DNA of 20,000 nt from an uncultured bacterium (GTDB taxonomy: Bacteria; JAGOEH01). The stretch is from the NCBI GenBank assembly GCA_964632485.1, contig CAZWDO010000018.1, positions 61,415 to 81,414 of the forward strand. The letters run 5' to 3'. The translations under genes and the position numbers were made by a program. The notes below the pieces were generated by a model. That model made no database searches. It worked only from the letters and a program-made list of their open reading frames with translations, and was not told the origin of the DNA. Of the stretch, positions 9,192 through 18,302 are shown one piece after another (the first letter of the stretch is position 1; every line of letters begins with the position of its first letter).

Positions 9192-10895
9192 GTGTATTTT
9201 TTACCCATTTTTTTTGTTTTATTTTTCTTTTTTACAGGTGGAGTTGGAGCTGATTCACTTCGTACGCCGCGAACTACGTCCTCGGGGATTGAATTTATTT
9301 ATCGCTCAGTCGCTGATCTGCAAAGCGTCGCGTTGATCGGTACGTTCAATGGCTGGAACAGAAAATCGCATCCCATGGAAAAAACGAATTCACAGTGGCA
9401 TATTGCCCTACCACTTGACGAAGGTCAATACGAATATAAATTTATATTGAATGACACTTTGGAAATTTCGGATCCGCTCAATCCGTTAACCAATCCGGAT
9501 GGGTCGGGGAATTCGATGTTTTTTGTATTACCCGACAGGAGTCTGGATACCACTACCGCTGAAGTCGGGGAGGATTCGCCGGGGATTTACTATCGCCTCT
9601 ATCAGGCCCAGCCAAGCCCAGACTGGGCAGCGGGTTCAATAATTTATGAACTTTTTCCAAGAGTTTATACGGCAGAGGCAAATTTTAAGGGATTAACCCA
9701 GAAGCTACCTTATTTAAATGATTTAGGTATCAACGTCCTCTGGTTGATGCCCATCTATCCGATAGGAGAGGTCAAACGCAAAGGAGCTCTGGGCTCACCA
9801 TATTCAGTCAAAGATTATCAGGCAATCAATCCGGAATTCGGCGCGTCCGAAGATTTTCGCGAATGGGTTCAAACGGCGCACAGCATGGGATTCAAGGTGA
9901 TATTGGATTGGGTTGCGAATCATTGCGCCTGGGACAATCCAATGGTAGAGGAACATCCCGATTGGTTCACCCGCGATGCCGATGGAGAGATGGTTCCTCC
10001 ATACCCGGATTGGTCGGACGTAGTAGATTTTGACTATCACAACACCGGTTTGCAAGCTTATATGATAAAATCGCTGCTTTATTGGGTGGAAACTTACGAT
10101 ATTGACGGATTCCGCTGTGATGTTGCCGGACTGGTCCCGGCGGCGTTCTGGGTGGCGGCGCGGCGCGAACTTCTTGCTATAAAACCATCACTACTGCTTC
10201 TGGCAGAATCGGAAGAACCCATGCACCATATCAAGGGTTTCGACGTCACCTATGACGGCAGTTTACGCCGTATTCTGGGAAAAATTGCCAACGGTAAAGC
10301 TACCCAGGATGAATTTTGGCTGAACTATTACGGGACACGCTATCTATACCCTCGCAACAGTTTACGGATGCGTTGGCTGGAAAACCATGATCAGATTCGT
10401 TCTCTTGAATACTTCGGAGAAGACGCCATCTATCCAGCTTCCGTGGCGTTACTCACTCTGGACGAGGTTCCTTTAATCCTTATGGGCCAGGAATTCGGTG
10501 ATCTGAATTGGCGGAATTGGCAATCGCTCTTTGATCCGTTGCAATTGGAATGGTTCAAAAACGGTTCCCCACTTTACCAACATTACCGCGAGCTTATCCG
10601 GATTCGCCGGGAAAATCCTGTTTTTTCAACTGATTCAGTCGTCAGTATCCGCAACGATAACCCATGGATTGTGAGCTATGTCCGCCGCGACCCCTCGGCT
10701 ACTATTCTGGTTTTTATTAATATGTCAAATCGTTCCGCTAAATGCCGTCTCAACCCTGAGGATTGGAACACGCATCAACTGCCTCAAAAATTACGGGGTC
10801 AGGATATTTTTTACCATTTACCTTTCTCGGTTTCATTCGAACAAGCTGTTTTCGAATTAAAACCCTGGGGATTTAAAATCCTTAAACTCGAATAA
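9192..10895 (+). CDS. Secreted GH13 alpha-amylase family glycoside hydrolase with N-terminal CBM48/AMPK-type glycogen-binding domain
   Basis: GTG start after AGGAGG; signal peptide; SVALIGTFNGWN...W...LDEGQYEYKF (CBM48-like); GH13 conserved regions ILDWVANH, DGFRCDVA (nucleophile), LLAESE (acid/base), WLENHD. Confidence 0.93.
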   Translation: MYFLPIFFVLFFFFTGGVGADSLRTPRTTSSGIEFIYRSVADLQSVALIGTFNGWNRKSHPMEKTNSQWHIALPLDEGQYEYKFILNDTLEISDPLNPLTNPDGSGNSMFFVLPDRSLDTTTAEVGEDSPGIYYRLYQAQPSPDWAAGSIIYELFPRVYTAEANFKGLTQKLPYLNDLGINVLWLMPIYPIGEVKRKGALGSPYSVKDYQAINPEFGASEDFREWVQTAHSMGFKVILDWVANHCAWDNPMVEEHPDWFTRDADGEMVPPYPDWSDVVDFDYHNTGLQAYMIKSLLYWVETYDIDGFRCDVAGLVPAAFWVAARRELLAIKPSLLLLAESEEPMHHIKGFDVTYDGSLRRILGKIANGKATQDEFWLNYYGTRYLYPRNSLRMRWLENHDQIRSLEYFGEDAIYPASVALLTLDEVPLILMGQEFGDLNWRNWQSLFDPLQLEWFKNGSPLYQHYRELIRIRRENPVFSTDSVVSIRNDNPWIVSYVRRDPSATILVFINMSNRSAKCRLNPEDWNTHQLPQKLRGQDIFYHLPFSVSFEQAVFELKPWGFKILKLE

Positions 10896-10960
10896 AATGA
10901 ATTCAACTTCCCTATTTATGGTAAAAATAATTGTTTACTTATAACTCCAGGAGAATTAAT

Positions 10961-11557
10961 ATGAAGCGACGTATATGGTTATGGATTCTAATCGGAGGAA
11001 GTTGGGGCATTGTGGAATGGGTAGGATTTCAATTTTTAAAACCGATATTTCCCGCGGGTTCGATTGGGGCGGGATTAACAGGATTCAGTATTTTCTTTTT
11101 AGGCCTGGCAATATTTTCATCTTTACCGGTACGAGACCTCTTTCTGATTGCTTTAATCACAGCGATCATTAAACCCTTCGGGTTGATCGCGTTCGGCCAT
11201 CCTTCCTGGACAAGCTGCCTCAGCGGCTCACTTTGGATTTATGGTTTAGAAACCGCTGTTTTTGCGGCCGCCGTTACCTGGATACCTTGTAGCATTCAGC
11301 GATTCAGCCGATTCCCCTTACTTTGGGGGGCAGGGATCGCAACTTTCAGCGCGGCGCTGTTTCCCTTAAATTCATTACTATTTGGTTTACCAGGTTGCGC
11401 CCGGCCCGGAACCTCCATCCCGCTCAGTTTTTTTTATTTACCCGTTAGTATGATTTGCGGCGCCGTAGCTCTCTGGAGCGCACATTGTCTAAATATGGCC
11501 ATTAAAAAAGCGCGGCCGTCTCGTACCCTCACCGCTACATCCGACCAACCCTTTTAA
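10961..11557 (+). CDS. Hypothetical integral membrane protein (about 6 TM), first gene of the xdh cluster
   Basis: ATG 10961 after AGGAG; 198 aa, mostly hydrophobic helices; ends 12 bp before xdhA. Confidence 0.75.
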   Translation: MKRRIWLWILIGGSWGIVEWVGFQFLKPIFPAGSIGAGLTGFSIFFLGLAIFSSLPVRDLFLIALITAIIKPFGLIAFGHPSWTSCLSGSLWIYGLETAVFAAAVTWIPCSIQRFSRFPLLWGAGIATFSAALFPLNSLLFGLPGCARPGTSIPLSFFYLPVSMICGAVALWSAHCLNMAIKKARPSRTLTATSDQPF

Positions 11558-11569
11558 AGAGAGCGCGCC

Positions 11570-13015
11570 ATGAGTTCGCAACAAATAATTAAATTTATTC
11601 TCAATGAATGCGCCATCAGCGTTGAAATCAACACGAATATACTATTGCTCGATTGGTTAAGACGGGAGAGGAAACTGACCGGAACAAAAGAAGGGTGCCG
11701 GGAAGGCGATTGCGGCGCCTGCATGGTATTGAGAGGATCGCCAGCGCCATCGGGAATAGATTACCGGACAGTCAATTCCTGCATGCTCCCCCTATTCGAC
11801 TGCGCGCATACCCATATCGTTACCATTGAAGGATTAAACTCAACGGGATTGAGTCGGGTCCAGCAATTAATGATTGAAGAAGGGGCGTTTCAATGTGGTT
11901 TTTGTACGCCCGGGTTCATTATTTCAATTACCGGATTTTTGTTTCAGACACGACAATTCCATGCCAATGAACTGATTGAATTTCTGAGCGGAAATCTTTG
12001 CCGGTGTACGGGGTACAAAGCGATCGAACGCATGGCTGAACGCCTTTGTAAGGCTTTAGGAGGACTTTCTACCGCAGCGGAATCCCAGCAACAGCGCCTG
12101 GAATACCTGGTTGACGCCAATATAATTCCCGCCTATTTTCGGGATATACCCAACCAATTGGGGCAAACAGCCCCGAATTCGACTATTCTTCTGCCGCTTG
12201 CTTCCAAGACGATAATTATAGGCGGCGGAACCGATCTATTGGTTCAACACGGGGAAAATATCGATGATTTACACTTATGTCCTGCCCGGCAACTGCCTGG
12301 ATTACTCATTATAAAAAAGGACCCGCACACTATCCGGCTTGGAGCGGCATTAACGGTAGCGGAACTTTCTGAATCCAATATCATGCAACAAATTATCCCT
12401 GAATGGCATGAATACGTTCAACTGATTTCATGTCCTTCAATCCGACATCGGGCCACATTAGCGGGAAATATTGTCAATGCCTCTCCCATCGGAGATTTAA
12501 GTATCATATTTCTGGCGCTGAATGCGGATATGGTTCTAAGTGGAGAGAATTACGAACGTAAGGTTTCCCTTAAAAATTTTTTTCTTGAGTATAAAAAAAT
12601 GGATTTAAATACCGGAGAAATTTTAAAAGCGATCGAAATAATCCAACCCATAAAAAATTTTAAATTCCATTTTGAGAAGGTAGCGCGGCGTCAGCGATTG
12701 GATATTGCTTCCGTCAATTGCGCTATGAGTGTAGTTTGGAGTACGGAAGATCGTCATATTGTAGAGATTCACGCAGCAGCGGGTGGCGTAGCTCCCATTC
12801 CCTTATATCTCCACAATTTTACGGCCTATCTGAAGCAACGTGAAATTAATGAGAGCGCCTTTAACAGAGCGGTTTCCATCGCCCTTGAGGAAGTCAGTCC
12901 CATCAGCGATGTCCGGGGCAGCTCCGATTATAAACGTTTACTTTTACGGCAATTATTATGGGCGCACGCGATCAAACTACTGAATATAAACCTTCAACCA
13001 GGGTCGCTGTTATGA
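11570..13015 (+). CDS. xdhA: Xanthine dehydrogenase small subunit (2x[2Fe-2S] + FAD)
   Basis: TGTKEGCREGDCGAC...NSC and QCGFCTPG...GNLCRCTGY Fe-S motifs; FAD motifs GGGTDL, RHRATLAGNIVNASPIGD, PISDVRGSSDYK. Confidence 0.95.
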   Translation: MSSQQIIKFILNECAISVEINTNILLLDWLRRERKLTGTKEGCREGDCGACMVLRGSPAPSGIDYRTVNSCMLPLFDCAHTHIVTIEGLNSTGLSRVQQLMIEEGAFQCGFCTPGFIISITGFLFQTRQFHANELIEFLSGNLCRCTGYKAIERMAERLCKALGGLSTAAESQQQRLEYLVDANIIPAYFRDIPNQLGQTAPNSTILLPLASKTIIIGGGTDLLVQHGENIDDLHLCPARQLPGLLIIKKDPHTIRLGAALTVAELSESNIMQQIIPEWHEYVQLISCPSIRHRATLAGNIVNASPIGDLSIIFLALNADMVLSGENYERKVSLKNFFLEYKKMDLNTGEILKAIEIIQPIKNFKFHFEKVARRQRLDIASVNCAMSVVWSTEDRHIVEIHAAAGGVAPIPLYLHNFTAYLKQREINESAFNRAVSIALEEVSPISDVRGSSDYKRLLLRQLLWAHAIKLLNINLQPGSLL

Positions 13016-15300
13016 AACCACGAGATACTGAGCTGCATGTGCGCGGGACAGCGCAATTTATTGATGATCTGCCTGAACCGGAGGGAGTGGTTCATGCGGC
13101 AGTTTTCGGCGCTCCTGTCGCTCACGGGCGTTTGTTGGCCATTGAAACCCATGGGGCCGATTCCATGCCCGGAGTGCTGGGCGTTCTAACGGCATCCGAC
13201 ATCCCCGGCGAAAATCAGATCGGCCATATAATTGCCGACGAACCCCTATTGGCAAATGAAACAATCGAATACTACCAGCAACCCCTCGCCGTCGTCCTTG
13301 CGCTATCCGCAACCCAAGCGCGCCGCGCGGCAAGGCGTATCCGGGCAAATCTGGAACCACTGACGCCCGTATTGGATTTGGATGAAGCCTTGCGGCTAAA
13401 GCAAATTATCGGTAAAGAACGGGTATTTGAAACCGGCAATGTGGAACGCGCCTGGAATGAGTGCGCGCTGATAGTGGAAGGACAGGTGGAATCAGGATTT
13501 CAGGAGCATGTGTATCTCGAGCCGCAATCGGCTCTGGCGCTTCCACTTGAAGGCGGACGACTCAAAGTTTATACGTCCACCCAATCGCCAACGGCAGTGC
13601 AACGCACTATCGCGCGGGTTCTGGGCTGTTCAATGAATGCGGTTGAAGTGGAAGTGATGCGACTGGGCGGTGGTTTCGGCGGCAAAGAAGAACAGGCTAA
13701 CAGTTGGGCCAGCCTGGCAGCATTAGCGGCATATCGATTTAAACGGCCGGTTAAATTAATCCTGAACCGCGCTGAGGATATCTCTATGACGGGGAAACGA
13801 CACCCCTATCGCGCTCACTTTAAACTGGGCATCGATTCTAAATATAAAATCCGGGCCTATACGGTGGAACTCTACCAGAATGCTGGCGCGTTTTGCGATC
13901 TTTCTCCCGCCATTCTCGAACGCTCTTTGTTTCATGCCACTAACAGCTACTATATTCCTAACGCGCGTTTAAAAGCGGTTTCACTGAAAACCAACATTCC
14001 CCCCAATACAGCATTCCGGGGTTTCGGCGCCCCCCAATCAATGTTCGTTATTGAAACAGCGCTCTCGGAAGCCGCCCGGCAAATGGGAATCACCACCGCT
14101 GCGCTCCAGGAAGCCAATCTGATTCAAAAAGGAGAGCCTTTCCCCTACGGCATGCAACAGAAAGACCAGCAACCCCTGGCCTGTTGGCGAAAACTGCAAA
14201 CTGATTTTCGTGTGGCTGATCTTAGAAAACGTATCGAAGCCTTTAACCAAACCCATTCCTGGCAAAAAAAAGGATTGGCGCTGATGCCGATCTGCTTTGG
14301 AATTTCTTTCACAACAACCTGGATGAACCAGGCATCCGCGCTGGTAAATATCTATACGGATGGCAGCATCAGCATCAACACCGGCGCAGTTGAAATGGGG
14401 CAGGGCGTCCACGCCAAACTGCGTCAAATTGCCGCCACAATTTTTGGAATCGAATCGACACGTATTTTTATTGAAGCAACCAATACCAGCCGGATAGCCA
14501 ATTCATCGCCAACTGCTGCCAGCACCGGACCGGACCTGAATGGCAACGCGACGCTGATGGCGTGTGAAATATTGAAAAACCGCATTATAGAGGTAGCGCG
14601 CCGTCTGCTGAATGCGGGTGCAACCACTACACTATCTATCGCAAACGAAACAATTTGCATCGACAAAACCCCGACTGCGATGAACTGGACCGAACTGATC
14701 CAGAAAAGTTATTGGGAACGAGTTTCACTTTCCGCTCATGCGTTTTATGCGACTCCGGATATCTTTTTCGACCGAGTTACAGAAAAAGGCCGGCCCTTCG
14801 CGTATCATGTCAGCGGTTGCTCCCTGACCGAAATTACCTTGGATTGTCTGCGCGGAATTTTCGTCATCGATTCAGTTTCCATTGTTCACGACCTGGGACG
14901 GCCTATTGATGAAATTATTGACCGCGGTCAGATTGAAGGCGCTCTGCTTCAGGGATTAGGATGGATTTCAATGGAAGAAATTCTTTTTGATACTAAAGGA
15001 TATTTGCTAACGCCAAATTTAGCGAAATACAAAATACCCGATATCGCGTTTGCTCCCGGGCGCGTCGTGATCCATTTCGCAGAAATCGGAGAAGAAAACT
15101 CCCGCGACGGAATTTTGGGTTCAAAAGCCATCGGGGAGCCCCCTTTCATGTACGGTATCGGACTTTTTTTCGCGCTCAAAGAGGCGATCCTGGCCTTCAA
15201 TCCAAGGGCGCAGCTTGCCAACATAGCTCCCTTGACCCATGAACGAATCTTATCGGCGCTATATCCTCAAAATCTGGTCGGGAAAGAATCATGCCGTTGA
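13012..15300 (+). CDS. xdhB: Xanthine dehydrogenase molybdopterin-binding subunit
   Basis: ATG 13012 overlaps the xdhA stop (ATGA); QEHVYLE, RLGGGFGGKE, TAFRGFGAPQ, GAVEMGQG, GQIEGA, SKAIGEPP (catalytic Glu). The substrate-binding Glu and Arg of xanthine oxidoreductases appear retained. Confidence 0.95.
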   Translation: MKPRDTELHVRGTAQFIDDLPEPEGVVHAAVFGAPVAHGRLLAIETHGADSMPGVLGVLTASDIPGENQIGHIIADEPLLANETIEYYQQPLAVVLALSATQARRAARRIRANLEPLTPVLDLDEALRLKQIIGKERVFETGNVERAWNECALIVEGQVESGFQEHVYLEPQSALALPLEGGRLKVYTSTQSPTAVQRTIARVLGCSMNAVEVEVMRLGGGFGGKEEQANSWASLAALAAYRFKRPVKLILNRAEDISMTGKRHPYRAHFKLGIDSKYKIRAYTVELYQNAGAFCDLSPAILERSLFHATNSYYIPNARLKAVSLKTNIPPNTAFRGFGAPQSMFVIETALSEAARQMGITTAALQEANLIQKGEPFPYGMQQKDQQPLACWRKLQTDFRVADLRKRIEAFNQTHSWQKKGLALMPICFGISFTTTWMNQASALVNIYTDGSISINTGAVEMGQGVHAKLRQIAATIFGIESTRIFIEATNTSRIANSSPTAASTGPDLNGNATLMACEILKNRIIEVARRLLNAGATTTLSIANETICIDKTPTAMNWTELIQKSYWERVSLSAHAFYATPDIFFDRVTEKGRPFAYHVSGCSLTEITLDCLRGIFVIDSVSIVHDLGRPIDEIIDRGQIEGALLQGLGWISMEEILFDTKGYLLTPNLAKYKIPDIAFAPGRVVIHFAEIGEENSRDGILGSKAIGEPPFMYGIGLFFALKEAILAFNPRAQLANIAPLTHERILSALYPQNLVGKESCR

Positions 15301-15776
15301 TTACAGCGCAGGATATATGGCGCGGCCTGCTTATTTACCCCCTGGGCGATACCATTGCCGCCTTAATTTCCCGGCAATTCAACATATCGCGGCTAATAGG
15401 CATGATGCTGATCGGCGCTTTACTATACGCTTTTGAAATCCCGCATTATTTTAATTGGCTGGAAAAGAAAATCGGACAGCCGCAAAATTTCAGATATCGC
15501 TTGAGAAAAAGCGCGCTGGCGGCGTTATGGTTCAATCCCCTGTGGATCGCCCGCCACCTGTTTTTTATCTATCTCTTCAGCGGCGCTTGGTATAAATTGA
15601 ATACCCATCTGATAATCATTGGCATCTATTCTTTTATCTGGAACCTGCCTGTTTCACTGTCGGCCAATTATGTGATACAAAACAAACTTTCATTGAGATG
15701 GCGTTTTTTTGCCAGCGCTGTTTTTTCTTCTTTAATGGCGATTTACTATGCGCTGAGTGGAGTATGGCTTCAATGA
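15291..15776 (+). CDS. Mpv17/PMP22 (PXMP2) family membrane protein
   Basis: 161 aa, 4 hydrophobic helices; LGDTIAALI...SRLIGMMLIG...HYFNWLEK...LRKSALAALWFNPLW...ANYVIQNKLSLRWRFFASAVFS resembles the Mpv17 pattern (GDxxAQ...RxxxMxxxG...WyxxLd...K...fxP...N...vPxxxR). Overlaps both xdhB and xdhC. Confidence 0.75.
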   Translation: MPLITAQDIWRGLLIYPLGDTIAALISRQFNISRLIGMMLIGALLYAFEIPHYFNWLEKKIGQPQNFRYRLRKSALAALWFNPLWIARHLFFIYLFSGAWYKLNTHLIIIGIYSFIWNLPVSLSANYVIQNKLSLRWRFFASAVFSSLMAIYYALSGVWLQ

Positions 15777-16756
15777 CGGATTACCAGTTCTGGCAAAGCG
15801 TGGTTAACCGCTTGGAAAACCGTCATTCGCTGCTACTGGCAATCGTTGTCCATACAGAAGGCCACAGCCCCGGGCGCCCGGGTTTCAAGATGGCGGTGAC
15901 CCGGGGCGATAGCTTCGGAACAGTAGGCGGGGGAGCGCTGGAAGAAAAGGTCATTAATCAAAGCCGATCGGCCGAGCAAACCCCCGGTTTCCAAGCGCGG
16001 CGCATTTCCATTGACCTATCCGCGGCCGCGCCCCACGGGATGGTCTGCGGGGGAAAAGCCGAAATACTGCTCGTCTCGTTGACCGAGACGCCACTTTCTG
16101 AATGGCGGGTCCTGCTCGAGCGCTATCAGCGAGGCGAAAGATCCCTCCTGCAAATTACCGCGGAGGACACTATAAGTATCAGCCCCTTAGCCGCATCCGT
16201 TCCGGATTCGATCGCCAATCGAATTGAATGGCGCTTCGTATCGCCGGAACAGTGGCAGTACCGGGAACGGGTGGGATTCTCCGACCGGATTTTCATTATC
16301 GGCGGCGGACACGTAAGTCTGGCGCTTTCAAAAATTCTGGTAGCGTTAAATTTCCATATAACGGTATGCGACGAACGCGAAAATCTACCCTCATTGATGG
16401 AAAATTGCTTTGCCCATGAGATTGTCCGCATCCCATTCGGCCGCGTCCATGAAATCCTACCTCAAGGGGAGCGCCTTTGGATCGCGATCATGACCCCTGA
16501 CCATCGCTATGATTATGAAACGCTGCACCGGTTGATCCGCATGCCCCTAACTTATATCGGCGTGATGGCCAGTCCGGAAAAAGCGCGCCAATTTTGTGAT
16601 CAGCTCCAGCAGGAGGGTATCGAAGCCGCATTGATGCGTAAACTTCATATTCCGATAGGTGTACCGATCCATAGCGAAACAGCGGAAGAAATTGCAGTCA
16701 GCATCGCCGCGCAACTGATCCAACTCCGCTATGAATTCAGCTCATCACCCGATTAA
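15773..16756 (+). CDS. xdhC: XdhC/CoxI family molybdenum-cofactor chaperone (xanthine dehydrogenase accessory factor)
   Basis: ATG 15773 overlaps the upstream stop (ATGA); TEGHSPGRPGFKM...FGTVGGGALE, GMVCGG, IIGGGHVSLAL, MTPDHRYD, YIGVMAS, HIPIGVPIHSETAEEIAVSIAAQL. Confidence 0.95.
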   Translation: MTDYQFWQSVVNRLENRHSLLLAIVVHTEGHSPGRPGFKMAVTRGDSFGTVGGGALEEKVINQSRSAEQTPGFQARRISIDLSAAAPHGMVCGGKAEILLVSLTETPLSEWRVLLERYQRGERSLLQITAEDTISISPLAASVPDSIANRIEWRFVSPEQWQYRERVGFSDRIFIIGGGHVSLALSKILVALNFHITVCDERENLPSLMENCFAHEIVRIPFGRVHEILPQGERLWIAIMTPDHRYDYETLHRLIRMPLTYIGVMASPEKARQFCDQLQQEGIEAALMRKLHIPIGVPIHSETAEEIAVSIAAQLIQLRYEFSSSPD

Positions 16757-17315: not shown

Positions 17316-18302
17316 AGCAGAGTAACTTCAAAGAAGTTGTTTTAAAAGAGGTGTTTAAAAAGAGCCTTCATAAAATTAACCGTACCGATCCAGGCAAAGA
17401 GTGGCTCACCAAAAAGCAATTGGAAGAACTCTATACAGAGATTTCTGAGGGTACGGGCGATCGGCCGGTCGCCAGTAAAAGTCTGCACGAAGCCAATAAG
17501 GCCATATTTAATCTTCTGCTAAAAAATACCACTGTTGACCGCAATGAGCTGACCGCTGAACAGTCCCCGGTAGTACGCTTTATTGATTTTGACAATTGGG
17601 ATAACAATTCATTTATCGCCATAAACCAGTTTCGTATCCAAACACCGGGCGGTTGGAAAAACTCTTAAGCGTTTAAGAAAAGGAAATTCAAGCCGTGAGC
17701 GATCCGGTGTGGTCTGGCATGCACAAGGTACGGTAAGTCTTTAACCATGGTTTTTCTGGTTCGTAAAATCAGAAGTCAGGAAGATTTGAAAGACCACAAA
17801 ATTATCATGGTAAACGACCGTACCAACCTTGAAGACCAATTGACCGTTACTGCGACACTAACGGGTTAAACAGTAACCGTTATCGATAAAAGAAAGAACC
17901 TGCGCCCACTGTTGTCAGATGATTCGTCAAACCTGAATATGGTGATGATACATAAATTTCTTGAAGAGGAAATCAAGCACTCAAAAGCTCTGATGAAAGC
18001 GTATGTTGAAGAAGGAGAAGTACCGGAGTTCAAACCATTTGAAGTTGTCATCACCTCACCGGATACTGATGCTCATTGACGAGGCTCACCGCACCCGGGG
18101 CGGTGATATGGGAGACAATTTATTTACAGCCTTCCCCAATGCCTCTAAAGTTGCTTTTACCGGAACCCCGCTATTAACCCAGCGGCATAAAATTAAAACC
18201 CACGAACGATTTGGAAGCATCTCAGAATGGATTGATAAATACCAGATTAAACAGTCGGTTAAAGAATTGACAATAAACCGTTTAAAGGAAAGTGAATTAT
18301 GA
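17315..18302 (+). pseudogene. hsdR: Type I restriction endonuclease subunit R remnant (internally deleted, frameshifted, truncated)
   Basis: N-domain piece NFKEVVLKE...VRFIDFDNWDNNSFIAINQFRI; helicase piece ERSGVVWHAQG/GKSLTM with a frameshift at about 17730; VNDRTNLEDQL; in-frame TAA 17867-17869; second frameshift near 18058; IDEAHR (DEAH at 18078-18089); AFTGTP; no motifs IV-VI. Confidence 0.88.

What the first reader, a model, noticed from the sequence alone, without database searches (positions are those of the whole stretch)
15291..15776. Bacterial Mpv17/PXMP2-like channel gene built into a xanthine dehydrogenase operon: candidate purine/urate pore
Seen: a 4-TM Mpv17/PMP22-like ORF sits between xdhB and xdhC, overlapping xdhB by 10 bp and xdhC by ATGA, so it is translationally coupled to the purine-oxidation genes. 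Established: this family is characterised in eukaryotic organelles. PXMP2 is a peroxisomal pore linked to uric acid handling, MPV17 loss causes mtDNA depletion with nucleotide imbalance, and zebrafish mpv17 mutants lack guanine-crystal iridophores; the physiological substrate is unresolved. Canonical xdhABC operons use NCS2-type permeases. Inference: the bacterial homologue conducts hypoxanthine/xanthine in or urate out, which would give gene-context evidence for an ancestral purine-channel function of the family.
Basis: partly seen in the sequence, partly recalled or inferred. Interest (0 to 1): 0.85.

Follow-up and report, generated by a model that had tools for sequence, protein, structure and literature searches.

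The report
Mpv17-like membrane gene inside xanthine dehydrogenase operon
A small, unannotated bacterial membrane protein with the fold of the eukaryotic Mpv17/PMP22 channel family is built into xanthine dehydrogenase operons, which makes it a candidate route for purines or urate across the membrane and a possible bacterial model for a poorly understood human disease protein family.

Summary
ORF 15291..15776 (+, 161 aa) overlaps the xdhB stop by 10 nt and the xdhC start by ATGA. It belongs to a conserved family, unnamed in every listed record (1185 clusters).

- **Linkage to XDH:** xdhB lies directly upstream in 75 of 79 assessable genome loci. The exception genomes searched carry XdhB elsewhere.
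- **Family membership:** Pfam's Mpv17_PMP22 model does not recognise it. The fold does match. An Atlas model aligns to a plant PF04117 cluster at TM 0.81. Two AlphaFold models of my own both hit a viral "Mpv17/PMP22 family protein" first.
- **Not a core subunit:** 21 of 26 sampled Bacteroidota genomes with an equally close XdhB lack it.
- **Genome pattern:** carrier genomes mostly lack both an NCS2 permease and OHCU decarboxylase, with either found in 3 of 19 carriers against 19 of 21 non-carriers. This comparison is post hoc and the genomes are related.

My best reading, at about 0.45, is an inner-membrane purine/urate conduit serving a stand-alone XDH, with urate exit somewhat favoured. The "ancestral function" claim is not supported. 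Function is untested.

The parts
15291..15776 (+). Mpv17/PMP22-fold membrane protein (P0001, 161 aa), the finding itself. It has five hydrophobic stretches. Conserved polar residues are D20, R34, E49, N82-P83, R88, H89, N118, N126, Q130 and R138.
   Evidence: ORF and overlaps. Family and conservation. AlphaFold model with pLDDT 90.8. Fold matches. Hydropathy.
11570..13015 (+). xdhA: [2Fe-2S] and FAD subunit of a xanthine dehydrogenase-type molybdenum hydroxylase.
   Evidence: Pfam Fer2, Fer2_2, FAD_binding_5 and CO_deh_flav_C. TIGR02963 scores 321.7 bits, below the 467 cut-off.
13012..15300 (+). xdhB: molybdopterin subunit. The longest frame opens at 12958. The likely start is the ATG at 13012, which overlaps the xdhA stop as ATGA.
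   Evidence: Pfam Ald_Xan_dh_C, MoCoBD_1 and MoCoBD_2. The best solved relative is Rhodobacter capsulatus XDH chain B, 1jro_B, at E=3.2e-155, with the Glu232, Arg310 and Glu730 equivalents conserved. M19 and K20 are nearly invariant in 26 orthologues. Sequence around the start.
15773..16756 (+). xdhC: molybdenum-cofactor insertion chaperone. Its start overlaps the stop of the membrane gene as ATGA.
   Evidence: Pfam XdhC_CoxI and XdhC_C. TIGR02964 scores 128 bits, below the 161.6 cut-off. Sequence.
10961..11557 (+). Second unannotated polytopic membrane protein, 12 nt upstream of xdhA (frame opens at TTG 10931, Met-11 at 10961). It is a possible QueT/ECF-S-component-like carrier. It belongs to the module in this lineage only.
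   Evidence: No Pfam family. Translation. Atlas structure lead to QueT at TM 0.57/0.68 and to an ECF S component at 0.45/0.55. Also found upstream of xdhA in G001, L014, L031, L137 and L143.

Best explanation
The ORF encodes a small inner-membrane protein with the Mpv17/PMP22 fold. It is an optional fourth gene of a self-contained xdhA-xdhB-X-xdhC module and is made in step with the enzyme through overlapping stop and start codons. I propose that it is the module's own solute conduit, a selective or gated facilitator that lets purine bases and/or urate cross the cytoplasmic membrane. Urate made by the cytoplasmic XDH cannot be degraded further in most carrier genomes, so exit of urate is the direction I favour slightly. 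Entry of hypoxanthine or xanthine down a gradient kept by XDH could use the same path. Shown: the gene, its conservation, its fold class, its linkage to xdh genes, its dispensability for orthologous XDH operons, and the gene-content pattern of carrier genomes. Inferred: membrane location and topology, any transport, the substrate and the direction.
For: (1) Fold. The Atlas model of this exact protein aligns over 159 residues at TM 0.81 to a Streptophyta cluster in which 95% of members carry PF04117; the next family scores 0.46. My AlphaFold model (pLDDT 90.8) has as its first BFVD hit 'Putative Mpv17/PMP22 family protein [Tetraselmis virus 1]', with prob 1.00, TMq 0.72, TMt 0.79 and rmsd 3.3 over 151 columns. 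The second hit has TMq 0.60 and all later hits are at or below 0.39. A model of a 35%-identical divergent member (pLDDT 89.7) gives the same two top hits, with TMt 0.77 and 0.62. Characterised relatives form solute pores: Pxmp2 loss makes urate oxidase latent and raises uric acid in mice (passages of PMC2662417), and MPV17 is described as channel-like (passages of PMC12493167). (2) Linkage. xdhB lies upstream on the same strand in 75 of 79 genome loci and in 31 of 43 close metagenome loci. All 5 exception genomes searched hold a close XdhB elsewhere. Of the gene clusters found in at least 6 of the 80 loci, none other than the four module genes is in more than 11. (3) Accessory, not core. In a sample of 301 Bacteroidota genomes, 26 have an XdhB of 47-52% identity but only 5 have this gene. 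In 5 of the 8 non-carrier loci fetched, xdhC follows xdhB directly; the other 3 show no xdhC within the 1.5 kb of flank held. (4) Gene content. OHCU decarboxylase is found in 1 of 19 carrier genomes against 9 of 21 non-carriers with a close XdhB. An NCS2 permease is found in 3 of 19 against 10 of 21. Either one is found in 3 of 19 against 19 of 21 (Fisher p=2.8e-6), and within the sample alone in 0 of 5 against 19 of 21 (p=3e-4). The window's own genome is 97.95% complete and has no match to uricase, PuuD-type urate oxidase, HIU hydrolase or OHCU decarboxylase. (5) Conserved charged and polar residues sit inside hydrophobic stretches and at two helix breaks (FNP, NxP), as expected of a binding site or pore lining.
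Against: No transport has been measured. Pfam's PF04117 model does not recognise the family, and no profile-profile comparison could be run, so homology rests on predicted folds. Not all Mpv17/PMP22 relatives are transport proteins: the abstract of PMC7318627 (listing) places Wsc and the fission factor Pex37 in the family. A permanently open wide pore like Pxmp2 would collapse the proton gradient of a bacterial inner membrane, so the mechanism cannot simply be copied. The gene-content contrast was found post hoc. The genomes are related and unnamed, so no phylogenetic correction was possible. Many are MAGs of unknown completeness, and the 19 carriers include non-Bacteroidota while the 21 non-carriers do not. 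In 9 of the 10 NCS2-positive non-carrier genomes the NCS2 gene is on a different contig from xdhB; in the tenth (G258) it is at least 146 kb away. That part may therefore be a lineage effect. 12 of 21 non-carriers also lack OHCU decarboxylase yet do without this gene. The window's genome does have one NCS2 permease and a second candidate carrier gene in the operon. In 9 of 18 divergent-branch loci the gene is not next to xdh, and the neighbours annotated in 3 of them (L107, L109, L115) are miscellaneous.
Confidence: 0.45

Rival explanations
1. Membrane dock or electron outlet for XDH. The protein tethers XdhAB to the inner membrane, and possibly passes electrons on to the quinone pool, rather than moving solutes.
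For: The genes are translationally coupled on both sides, as is common for subunits of one complex. xdhB-X adjacency is the most constant feature, at 75 of 79 loci. It persists where xdhC is not adjacent, which is the case in 17 of 78 loci. Every carrier genome checked has XdhB.
Against: Orthologous XDH operons of equal similarity lack the gene in 21 of 26 sampled genomes. The only well-conserved histidine, H89, is not invariant: it is Q in P0165, which is weak support for a haem site. No cofactor-binding family is matched. Divergent members occur away from xdh, with xdhB upstream in only 9 of 18 loci.
Confidence: 0.18
2. Maturation helper. The protein works with XdhC in supplying or inserting the molybdenum cofactor, for example by coupling it to a membrane step.
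For: It sits immediately before xdhC with an ATGA overlap. X-xdhC pairs occur detached from xdhAB in L036, L056 and L071, and in L120, L121, L127, L148, L160, L169 and L184.
Against: xdhC is missing downstream in 17 of 78 loci that keep xdhB-X. Orthologous xdhABC operons lack the gene. From recalled literature, not from a call: R. capsulatus XDH matures with XdhC alone. There is no resemblance to known molybdate or cofactor proteins.
Confidence: 0.08
3. A membrane protein whose role is only indirectly tied to XDH, for example coping with reactive oxygen or membrane stress caused by XDH activity, or another use of the Mpv17 fold not yet described.
For: Mpv17-family members have diverse reported roles (abstract of PMC7318627 in the listing; passages of PMC12493167). 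Divergent members stand in unrelated contexts.
Against: Tight operon embedding and genome-level dependence on XDH. The contrast with purine permease and urate-catabolism genes points to purine traffic.
Confidence: 0.2

Closest known systems
MPV17 / Sym1 (mitochondrial inner-membrane members of the Mpv17/PMP22 family, Pfam PF04117)
   Same: Both are small polytopic helical membrane proteins in an energised, inner-type membrane. The predicted fold matches PF04117-bearing proteins. Both have a link to nucleotide or purine metabolism: loss of MPV17 depletes mitochondrial dNTPs (passages of PMC12493167).
   Different: This one is bacterial and is not recognised by the PF04117 model. It shares 10-16% identity with the viral family members in the fold alignments. 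It is encoded inside an enzyme operon. It has its own conserved motifs (GD, EIP, FNPLWxxRH, NxP, IQN, RF). MPV17's own substrate is unresolved.
PXMP2 (peroxisomal membrane pore)
   Same: Same fold family. Functionally tied to urate: Pxmp2 loss makes urate oxidase latent and raises uric acid (passages of PMC2662417).
   Different: PXMP2 is described there as a non-selective, size-limited, mostly open pore and a homotrimer. The trimer evidence is in supplements I could not open. Such a pore is not tolerable in a bacterial inner membrane. PXMP2 feeds urate to its degrading enzyme, whereas here the degrading branch is mostly missing.
Putative Mpv17/PMP22 family protein of Tetraselmis virus 1 (UniProt A0A2P0VP22, BFVD model)
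   Same: Best structural match of both AlphaFold models, with TMt 0.79 and 0.77 and prob 1.00. Similar length, 144 aa.
   Different: It is a predicted structure of an uncharacterised giant-virus protein, so it carries no functional information.
NCS2 nucleobase permeases (Pfam PF00860, for example xanthine and uric-acid permeases)
   Same: Proposed to do the same job, moving purine bases or urate across the inner membrane. Carrier genomes seldom have one: 3 of 19 against 10 of 21 non-carriers.
   Different: Unrelated fold and size (about 450 aa, 14 helices from recalled knowledge). P0001 has no PF00860 match.

Membership tests
Mpv17/PMP22 (Pfam PF04117) | Match to the PF04117 profile at or above its gathering score of 27 bits | tested here: not met
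   P0001 matches no family at E<=1. A six-frame search of the own genome finds nothing at the ORF. 0 of 34 close members match at E<=10. 1 of 49 diverse members matches (P0165, E=0.011, 16.2 bits, residues 111-154 to profile positions 17-60). 0 of 5 carrier genomes are over the cut-off. 0 of 301 Bacteroidota genomes match at E<=1e-3.
Mpv17/PMP22 (Pfam PF04117) | Same three-dimensional fold as recognised members | tested here: met
   Atlas: TM 0.81 over 159 residues to a plant cluster that is 95% PF04117, with the next family at 0.46. BFVD: the first hit of two independent AlphaFold models is a named Mpv17/PMP22 protein, with TMt 0.79 and 0.77, well separated from later rows. All the structures compared are predictions.
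Mpv17/PMP22 (Pfam PF04117) | Small (about 150-200 aa) polytopic helical membrane protein | tested here: met
   161 aa. Five hydrophobic stretches. Positively charged loops at 56-73 and 131-138. Seven helices in the model.
Mpv17/PMP22 (Pfam PF04117) | Significant profile-profile sequence similarity to the family | not testable with these tools
The protein searches never reached PF04117-labelled proteins. No family member was found among solved PDB chains by fold or by sequence.
Mpv17/PMP22 (Pfam PF04117) | Oligomeric channel activity | not testable with these tools
   Needs electrophysiology or flux assays.
Xanthine dehydrogenase XdhAB with XdhC (context genes) | Domain architecture of the three proteins | tested here: met
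Xanthine dehydrogenase XdhAB with XdhC (context genes) | Active-site residues of purine-oxidising enzymes (R. capsulatus XdhB Glu232, Arg310, Glu730; their roles are recalled from the literature) | tested here: met
   All three positions are identical in the alignment to 1jro_B. XDH chains score above aldehyde oxidases, at 521 bits against at most 416.
Xanthine dehydrogenase XdhAB with XdhC (context genes) | NCBIfam equivalog cut-offs | tested here: not met
   XdhA 321.7 against 467, XdhB 738.1 against 849.5, XdhC 128 against 161.6. This is a divergent XDH branch, and its substrate is untested.
ECF S-component / QueT-like carriers (considered for P0001) | Fold match to solved S components | tested here: inconclusive

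The most novel reading that the evidence does not exclude
This bacterial family is a purine/urate-selective facilitator and the prokaryotic counterpart of MPV17, Sym1 and PXMP2. Nucleobase or urate passage would then be a conserved activity of the fold. The long-disputed substrate of MPV17, the gene mutated in mitochondrial DNA depletion syndrome, could be tested in a simple bacterial system with a defined partner enzyme.
Probability: 0.25. Interest if true: 0.85.

Novelty: new variant of a known kind. Interest (0 to 1): 0.65.

Why it matters
The Mpv17/PMP22 family includes a human disease gene whose transported species is still unknown. [quoted passage not shown] No family member was found among solved structures. 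A large, conserved bacterial family with the same fold, tied to one enzyme with known substrates and product, would give a concrete hypothesis: hypoxanthine, xanthine or urate. It would also give a tractable system for flux assays, genetics and structure work. For microbiology, it would name a widespread 'hypothetical protein' of marine Bacteroidota and Fermentibacteria-like MAGs. It would also describe a stand-alone XDH module in organisms that appear to stop purine oxidation at urate. My full-text searches found no paper linking Mpv17-like proteins to bacterial xdh operons. The library does not cover most subscription journals.

Tried and rejected
- **Complex prediction:** XdhB (alignment A4) with the membrane protein (A5) gave no verdict, with a score of 0.00 in two runs and the controls not folded. 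It says nothing either way.
- **Bridging to PF04117 by sequence failed:** phmmer over 1.84 billion representatives returned 96 hits, all carrying the family's motifs in the 48 that I aligned. A search from the one member with a weak PF04117 hit returned 22 proteins, none with a Pfam label.
- **Fused forms:** none among proteins of 283-2000 aa, which is weak evidence by the tool's own note.
- **Riboswitch or other RNA:** none in the window at E<=0.1. The promoter and terminator scans were at shuffle level.
- **Earlier scan notes:** nothing found by sequence or by words.
- **Haem-binding membrane anchor:** considered and set aside because the single conserved histidine is not invariant.
- **Row left out of a count:** G286 has a close XdhB split into two pieces, so I dropped it from the 21 non-carriers. 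Adding it gives 20 of 22 and does not change the direction.
- **Doubtful row:** G352 has a 25.7-bit partial PF00860 match in a 621-aa frame. I counted it as doubtful. Counting it as positive gives 4 of 19 (p=0.10 for NCS2 alone).
Full report
**Observation.** The window carries five tightly packed genes on the + strand. They are an unannotated membrane gene (frame from 10931, Met at 10961, to 11557), xdhA (11570..13015), xdhB (likely start 13012, to 15300), the ORF in question (15291..15776) and xdhC (15773..16756). The ORF overlaps xdhB by 10 nt. Its TGA overlaps the xdhC ATG as ATGA, and xdhA and xdhB overlap in the same way. Pfam identifies the three Xdh proteins. XdhB is closest to Rhodobacter capsulatus XDH among solved structures (1jro_B, E=3.2e-155). 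It keeps the residues aligned to Glu232, Arg310 and Glu730; the roles of these residues are recalled from the literature. It scores higher against xanthine dehydrogenases than against aldehyde oxidases. All three proteins fall below NCBIfam's equivalog cut-offs, so this is a divergent XDH branch whose substrate is probable but not proven.

**The gene is real and conserved.** P0001 (161 aa) matches 1185 clusters at E<=1e-3. The 120 listed are 48-60% identical to the query, are named 'hypothetical protein' or carry no name, and have no precomputed Pfam domain. An exhaustive phmmer search gives 96 representatives at the 50% identity level. In 34 sequences 35 columns are invariant. Across 49 diverse members, D20, R34, Y46, E49, F54, F81, N82, P83, W85, R88, H89 and F115 stay at 90% or more. 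Hydropathy shows five hydrophobic stretches, and the most positively charged loop is at 56-73. The AlphaFold model (pLDDT 90.8) has seven helices, with breaks at the conserved FNP and NxP motifs.

**Is it Mpv17/PMP22?**
- By Pfam's own model, no. P0001 has no hit. 0 of 34 close members hit. 1 of 49 diverse members hits, at E=0.011 and 16.2 bits against a 27-bit cut-off, though in the expected C-terminal region. 0 of 301 Bacteroidota genomes match.
- By fold, yes. The Atlas model of this exact sequence aligns at TM 0.81 over 159 residues to a plant cluster that is 95% PF04117, and the next family drops to 0.46.
- My model's first hit in the viral structure library is a 'Putative Mpv17/PMP22 family protein' of Tetraselmis virus 1 (TMq 0.72, TMt 0.79, prob 1.00). 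A second giant-virus protein scores 0.60, and nothing else exceeds 0.39.
- A model of a divergent member (P0166, about 35% identical, pLDDT 89.7) returns the same two hits.
- No solved structure resembles it.
- I could not obtain genuine Mpv17 sequences, so no profile-profile test was run. I therefore describe the protein as having the Mpv17/PMP22 fold and as a probable remote relative. I do not file it as a member.

**Context elsewhere.**
- 474 species genomes encode a relative and the best 80 were fetched. They are mostly Flavobacteriaceae, Saprospiraceae, Lewinellaceae and Cytophagales, with Fermentibacteria and Aegiribacteria MAGs and a few others.
- xdhB lies directly upstream in 75 of 79 assessable loci, xdhA in 66 of 70, and xdhC downstream in 61 of 78.
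- Among the gene clusters present in at least 6 of the 80 loci, none other than the four module genes is in more than 11. The minor ones include a CDA-fold deaminase after xdhC in 10 loci, which is TadA-like, below cut-off and possibly a guanine deaminase. A GNAT gene is inserted before the membrane gene in 9 loci.
- Five exception genomes were searched (L036, L043, L056, L071, and L079, which lacks only xdhA nearby). All five have a close XdhB elsewhere.
- The only genome of the window organism's own taxonomic family has the same five-gene order.
- In metagenome contigs fetched with a divergent-branch profile, close members have xdhB upstream in 31 of 43 loci. Divergent members (under 45% identity) have it in 9 of 18.
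- Neighbours were annotated in 3 of the 9 divergent loci that lack xdh (L107, L109, L115) and are miscellaneous.

**Core subunit or accessory?** In an even sample of 301 Bacteroidota genomes only 5 have the gene. This count includes the centre genome, which was chosen because it has it. By contrast, 26 genomes have a full-length XdhB of 47-52% identity to the window's. In 5 of the 8 non-carrier loci fetched, xdhC follows xdhB directly. The other three show no xdhC within the 1.5 kb of flank held. The enzyme therefore works and matures without this protein in close relatives. That argues against an obligatory structural, redox or maturation role and fits an add-on such as a transporter.

**Gene content of carrier genomes.**
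- The window's genome (97.95% complete) has no match to uricase, PuuD-type urate oxidase, HIU hydrolase or OHCU decarboxylase. It does have one NCS2 permease, on another contig.
- Across 19 carrier genomes, OHCU decarboxylase was found in 1 and a clear NCS2 permease in 3.
- Among the 21 non-carriers with a close XdhB, OHCU decarboxylase was found in 9 and an NCS2 permease in 10, and never both in the same genome. In 6 of the 9 the OHCU gene lies within 7 kb of xdhB.
- Either gene is present in 3 of 19 carriers against 19 of 21 non-carriers (p=2.8e-6). Within the sample alone it is 0 of 5 against 19 of 21 (p=3e-4).
- These tests are post hoc and ignore relatedness. They mix MAGs of unknown completeness, and the carriers include non-Bacteroidota. 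In 9 of the 10 NCS2-positive non-carriers the NCS2 gene is on a different contig from xdhB, and in G258 it is at least 146 kb away. I treat the pattern as suggestive only.
- The pattern says that the membrane gene marks stand-alone XDH modules in genomes without the usual purine permease and without the urate-degrading branch.

**Mechanism proposed.** The protein is an inner-membrane conduit made in step with XDH. Urate is a dead end in most carriers, so its exit is the simplest need that the module must meet by itself. A facilitator could equally admit hypoxanthine or xanthine down a gradient maintained by XDH. The protein cannot be an open, wide pore like Pxmp2 (passages of PMC2662417), because that would de-energise the cell. 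Selectivity or gating, perhaps involving the buried D20/E49 and R88/H89 positions, is implied but unshown. In this window's lineage the extra upstream membrane gene gives a structure lead to QueT, a 7-deazapurine carrier family, at TM 0.57/0.68. It might be the importer, which would leave export to the Mpv17-like protein. This is speculation.

**Rivals and verdict.** The rivals are a membrane dock or electron outlet, a helper of XdhC, and an indirect role. They are listed with their evidence in the rival explanations. The functional idea is plausible and now has some comparative support, but no direct evidence. The claim of an ancestral function is not supported. I found no paper describing this link, within a library that lacks most subscription journals. 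I saw only search listings and passages of the cited papers, and supplements were closed.

Noticed in passing
window 10931..11557 (+), Met-11 at 10961: A second unannotated polytopic membrane protein lies 12 nt upstream of xdhA. It has no Pfam family. An Atlas structure lead points to QueT (TM 0.57/0.68) and to ECF S components (0.45/0.55). Homologues sit upstream of xdhA in G001 (L104), L014, L031, L137 and L143 only. It may be the purine importer of the module in this lineage.
   Followed up: partly
L012, L017, L027, L038, L039, L041, L044, L048, L051, L060, L062, around 9950-10100: In 26 of the 72 loci listed, my ORF caller gave a membrane-gene ORF of only 123-144 codons that starts inside the conserved region. 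In all 11 of these that I inspected there is no ATG, GTG or TTG between the upstream in-frame stop and the conserved N-terminal helix. An ATC, ATT or ATA codon stands where other members have Met (the 'IKL' motif). This suggests non-canonical, weak translation starts in many Flavobacteriaceae copies.
   Followed up: partly
Bacteroidota sample, handles: The 26 sampled genomes with a close XdhB fall into nearly exclusive classes: OHCU decarboxylase only (9), NCS2 permease only (10), Mpv17-like gene only (5), and none of these (2, G106 and G310). In 6 of the 9 OHCU-positive genomes that gene is within 7 kb of xdhB.
   Followed up: partly
L036, L056, L071; L120, L121, L127, L148, L160, L169, L184: The membrane gene and xdhC occur as a pair without xdhAB upstream. 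In the three genomes checked (L036, L056, L071) a close XdhB lies on another contig.
   Followed up: partly
L067:11496-11972 and 9 other loci; L055:9399-9974 and 8 other loci: A 158-aa CDA-fold deaminase follows xdhC in 10 loci. It is TadA-like at 88.5 bits, below the 150 cut-off, and could be a guanine deaminase. A GNAT acetyltransferase is inserted between xdhB and the membrane gene in 9 loci.
   Followed up: partly
P0166 model me6a8e47e0e33, residues 75-98: The divergent subfamily (about 180-200 aa, with a 'GDxIAQ' motif in helix 1) carries an insertion in the positively charged loop that is predicted to form a small three-stranded sheet.
   Followed up: no
window 17351..17668 and 18003..18302 (+): Two short ORFs match the N terminus (HSDR_N) and part of the SWI2_SNF2/ResIII ATPase of a type I restriction R subunit. 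They look like remnants of a broken hsdR gene just downstream of the xdh module.
   Followed up: no
whole genome G000: The window's organism sits in a sparsely sampled lineage. Of the 40 'relatives' the tool drew from its collection of 199,900 species genomes, only one was of the same family and one of the same order. Its xdh module is nevertheless 45-60% identical to those of Bacteroidota and Fermentibacteria-like MAGs.
   Followed up: no
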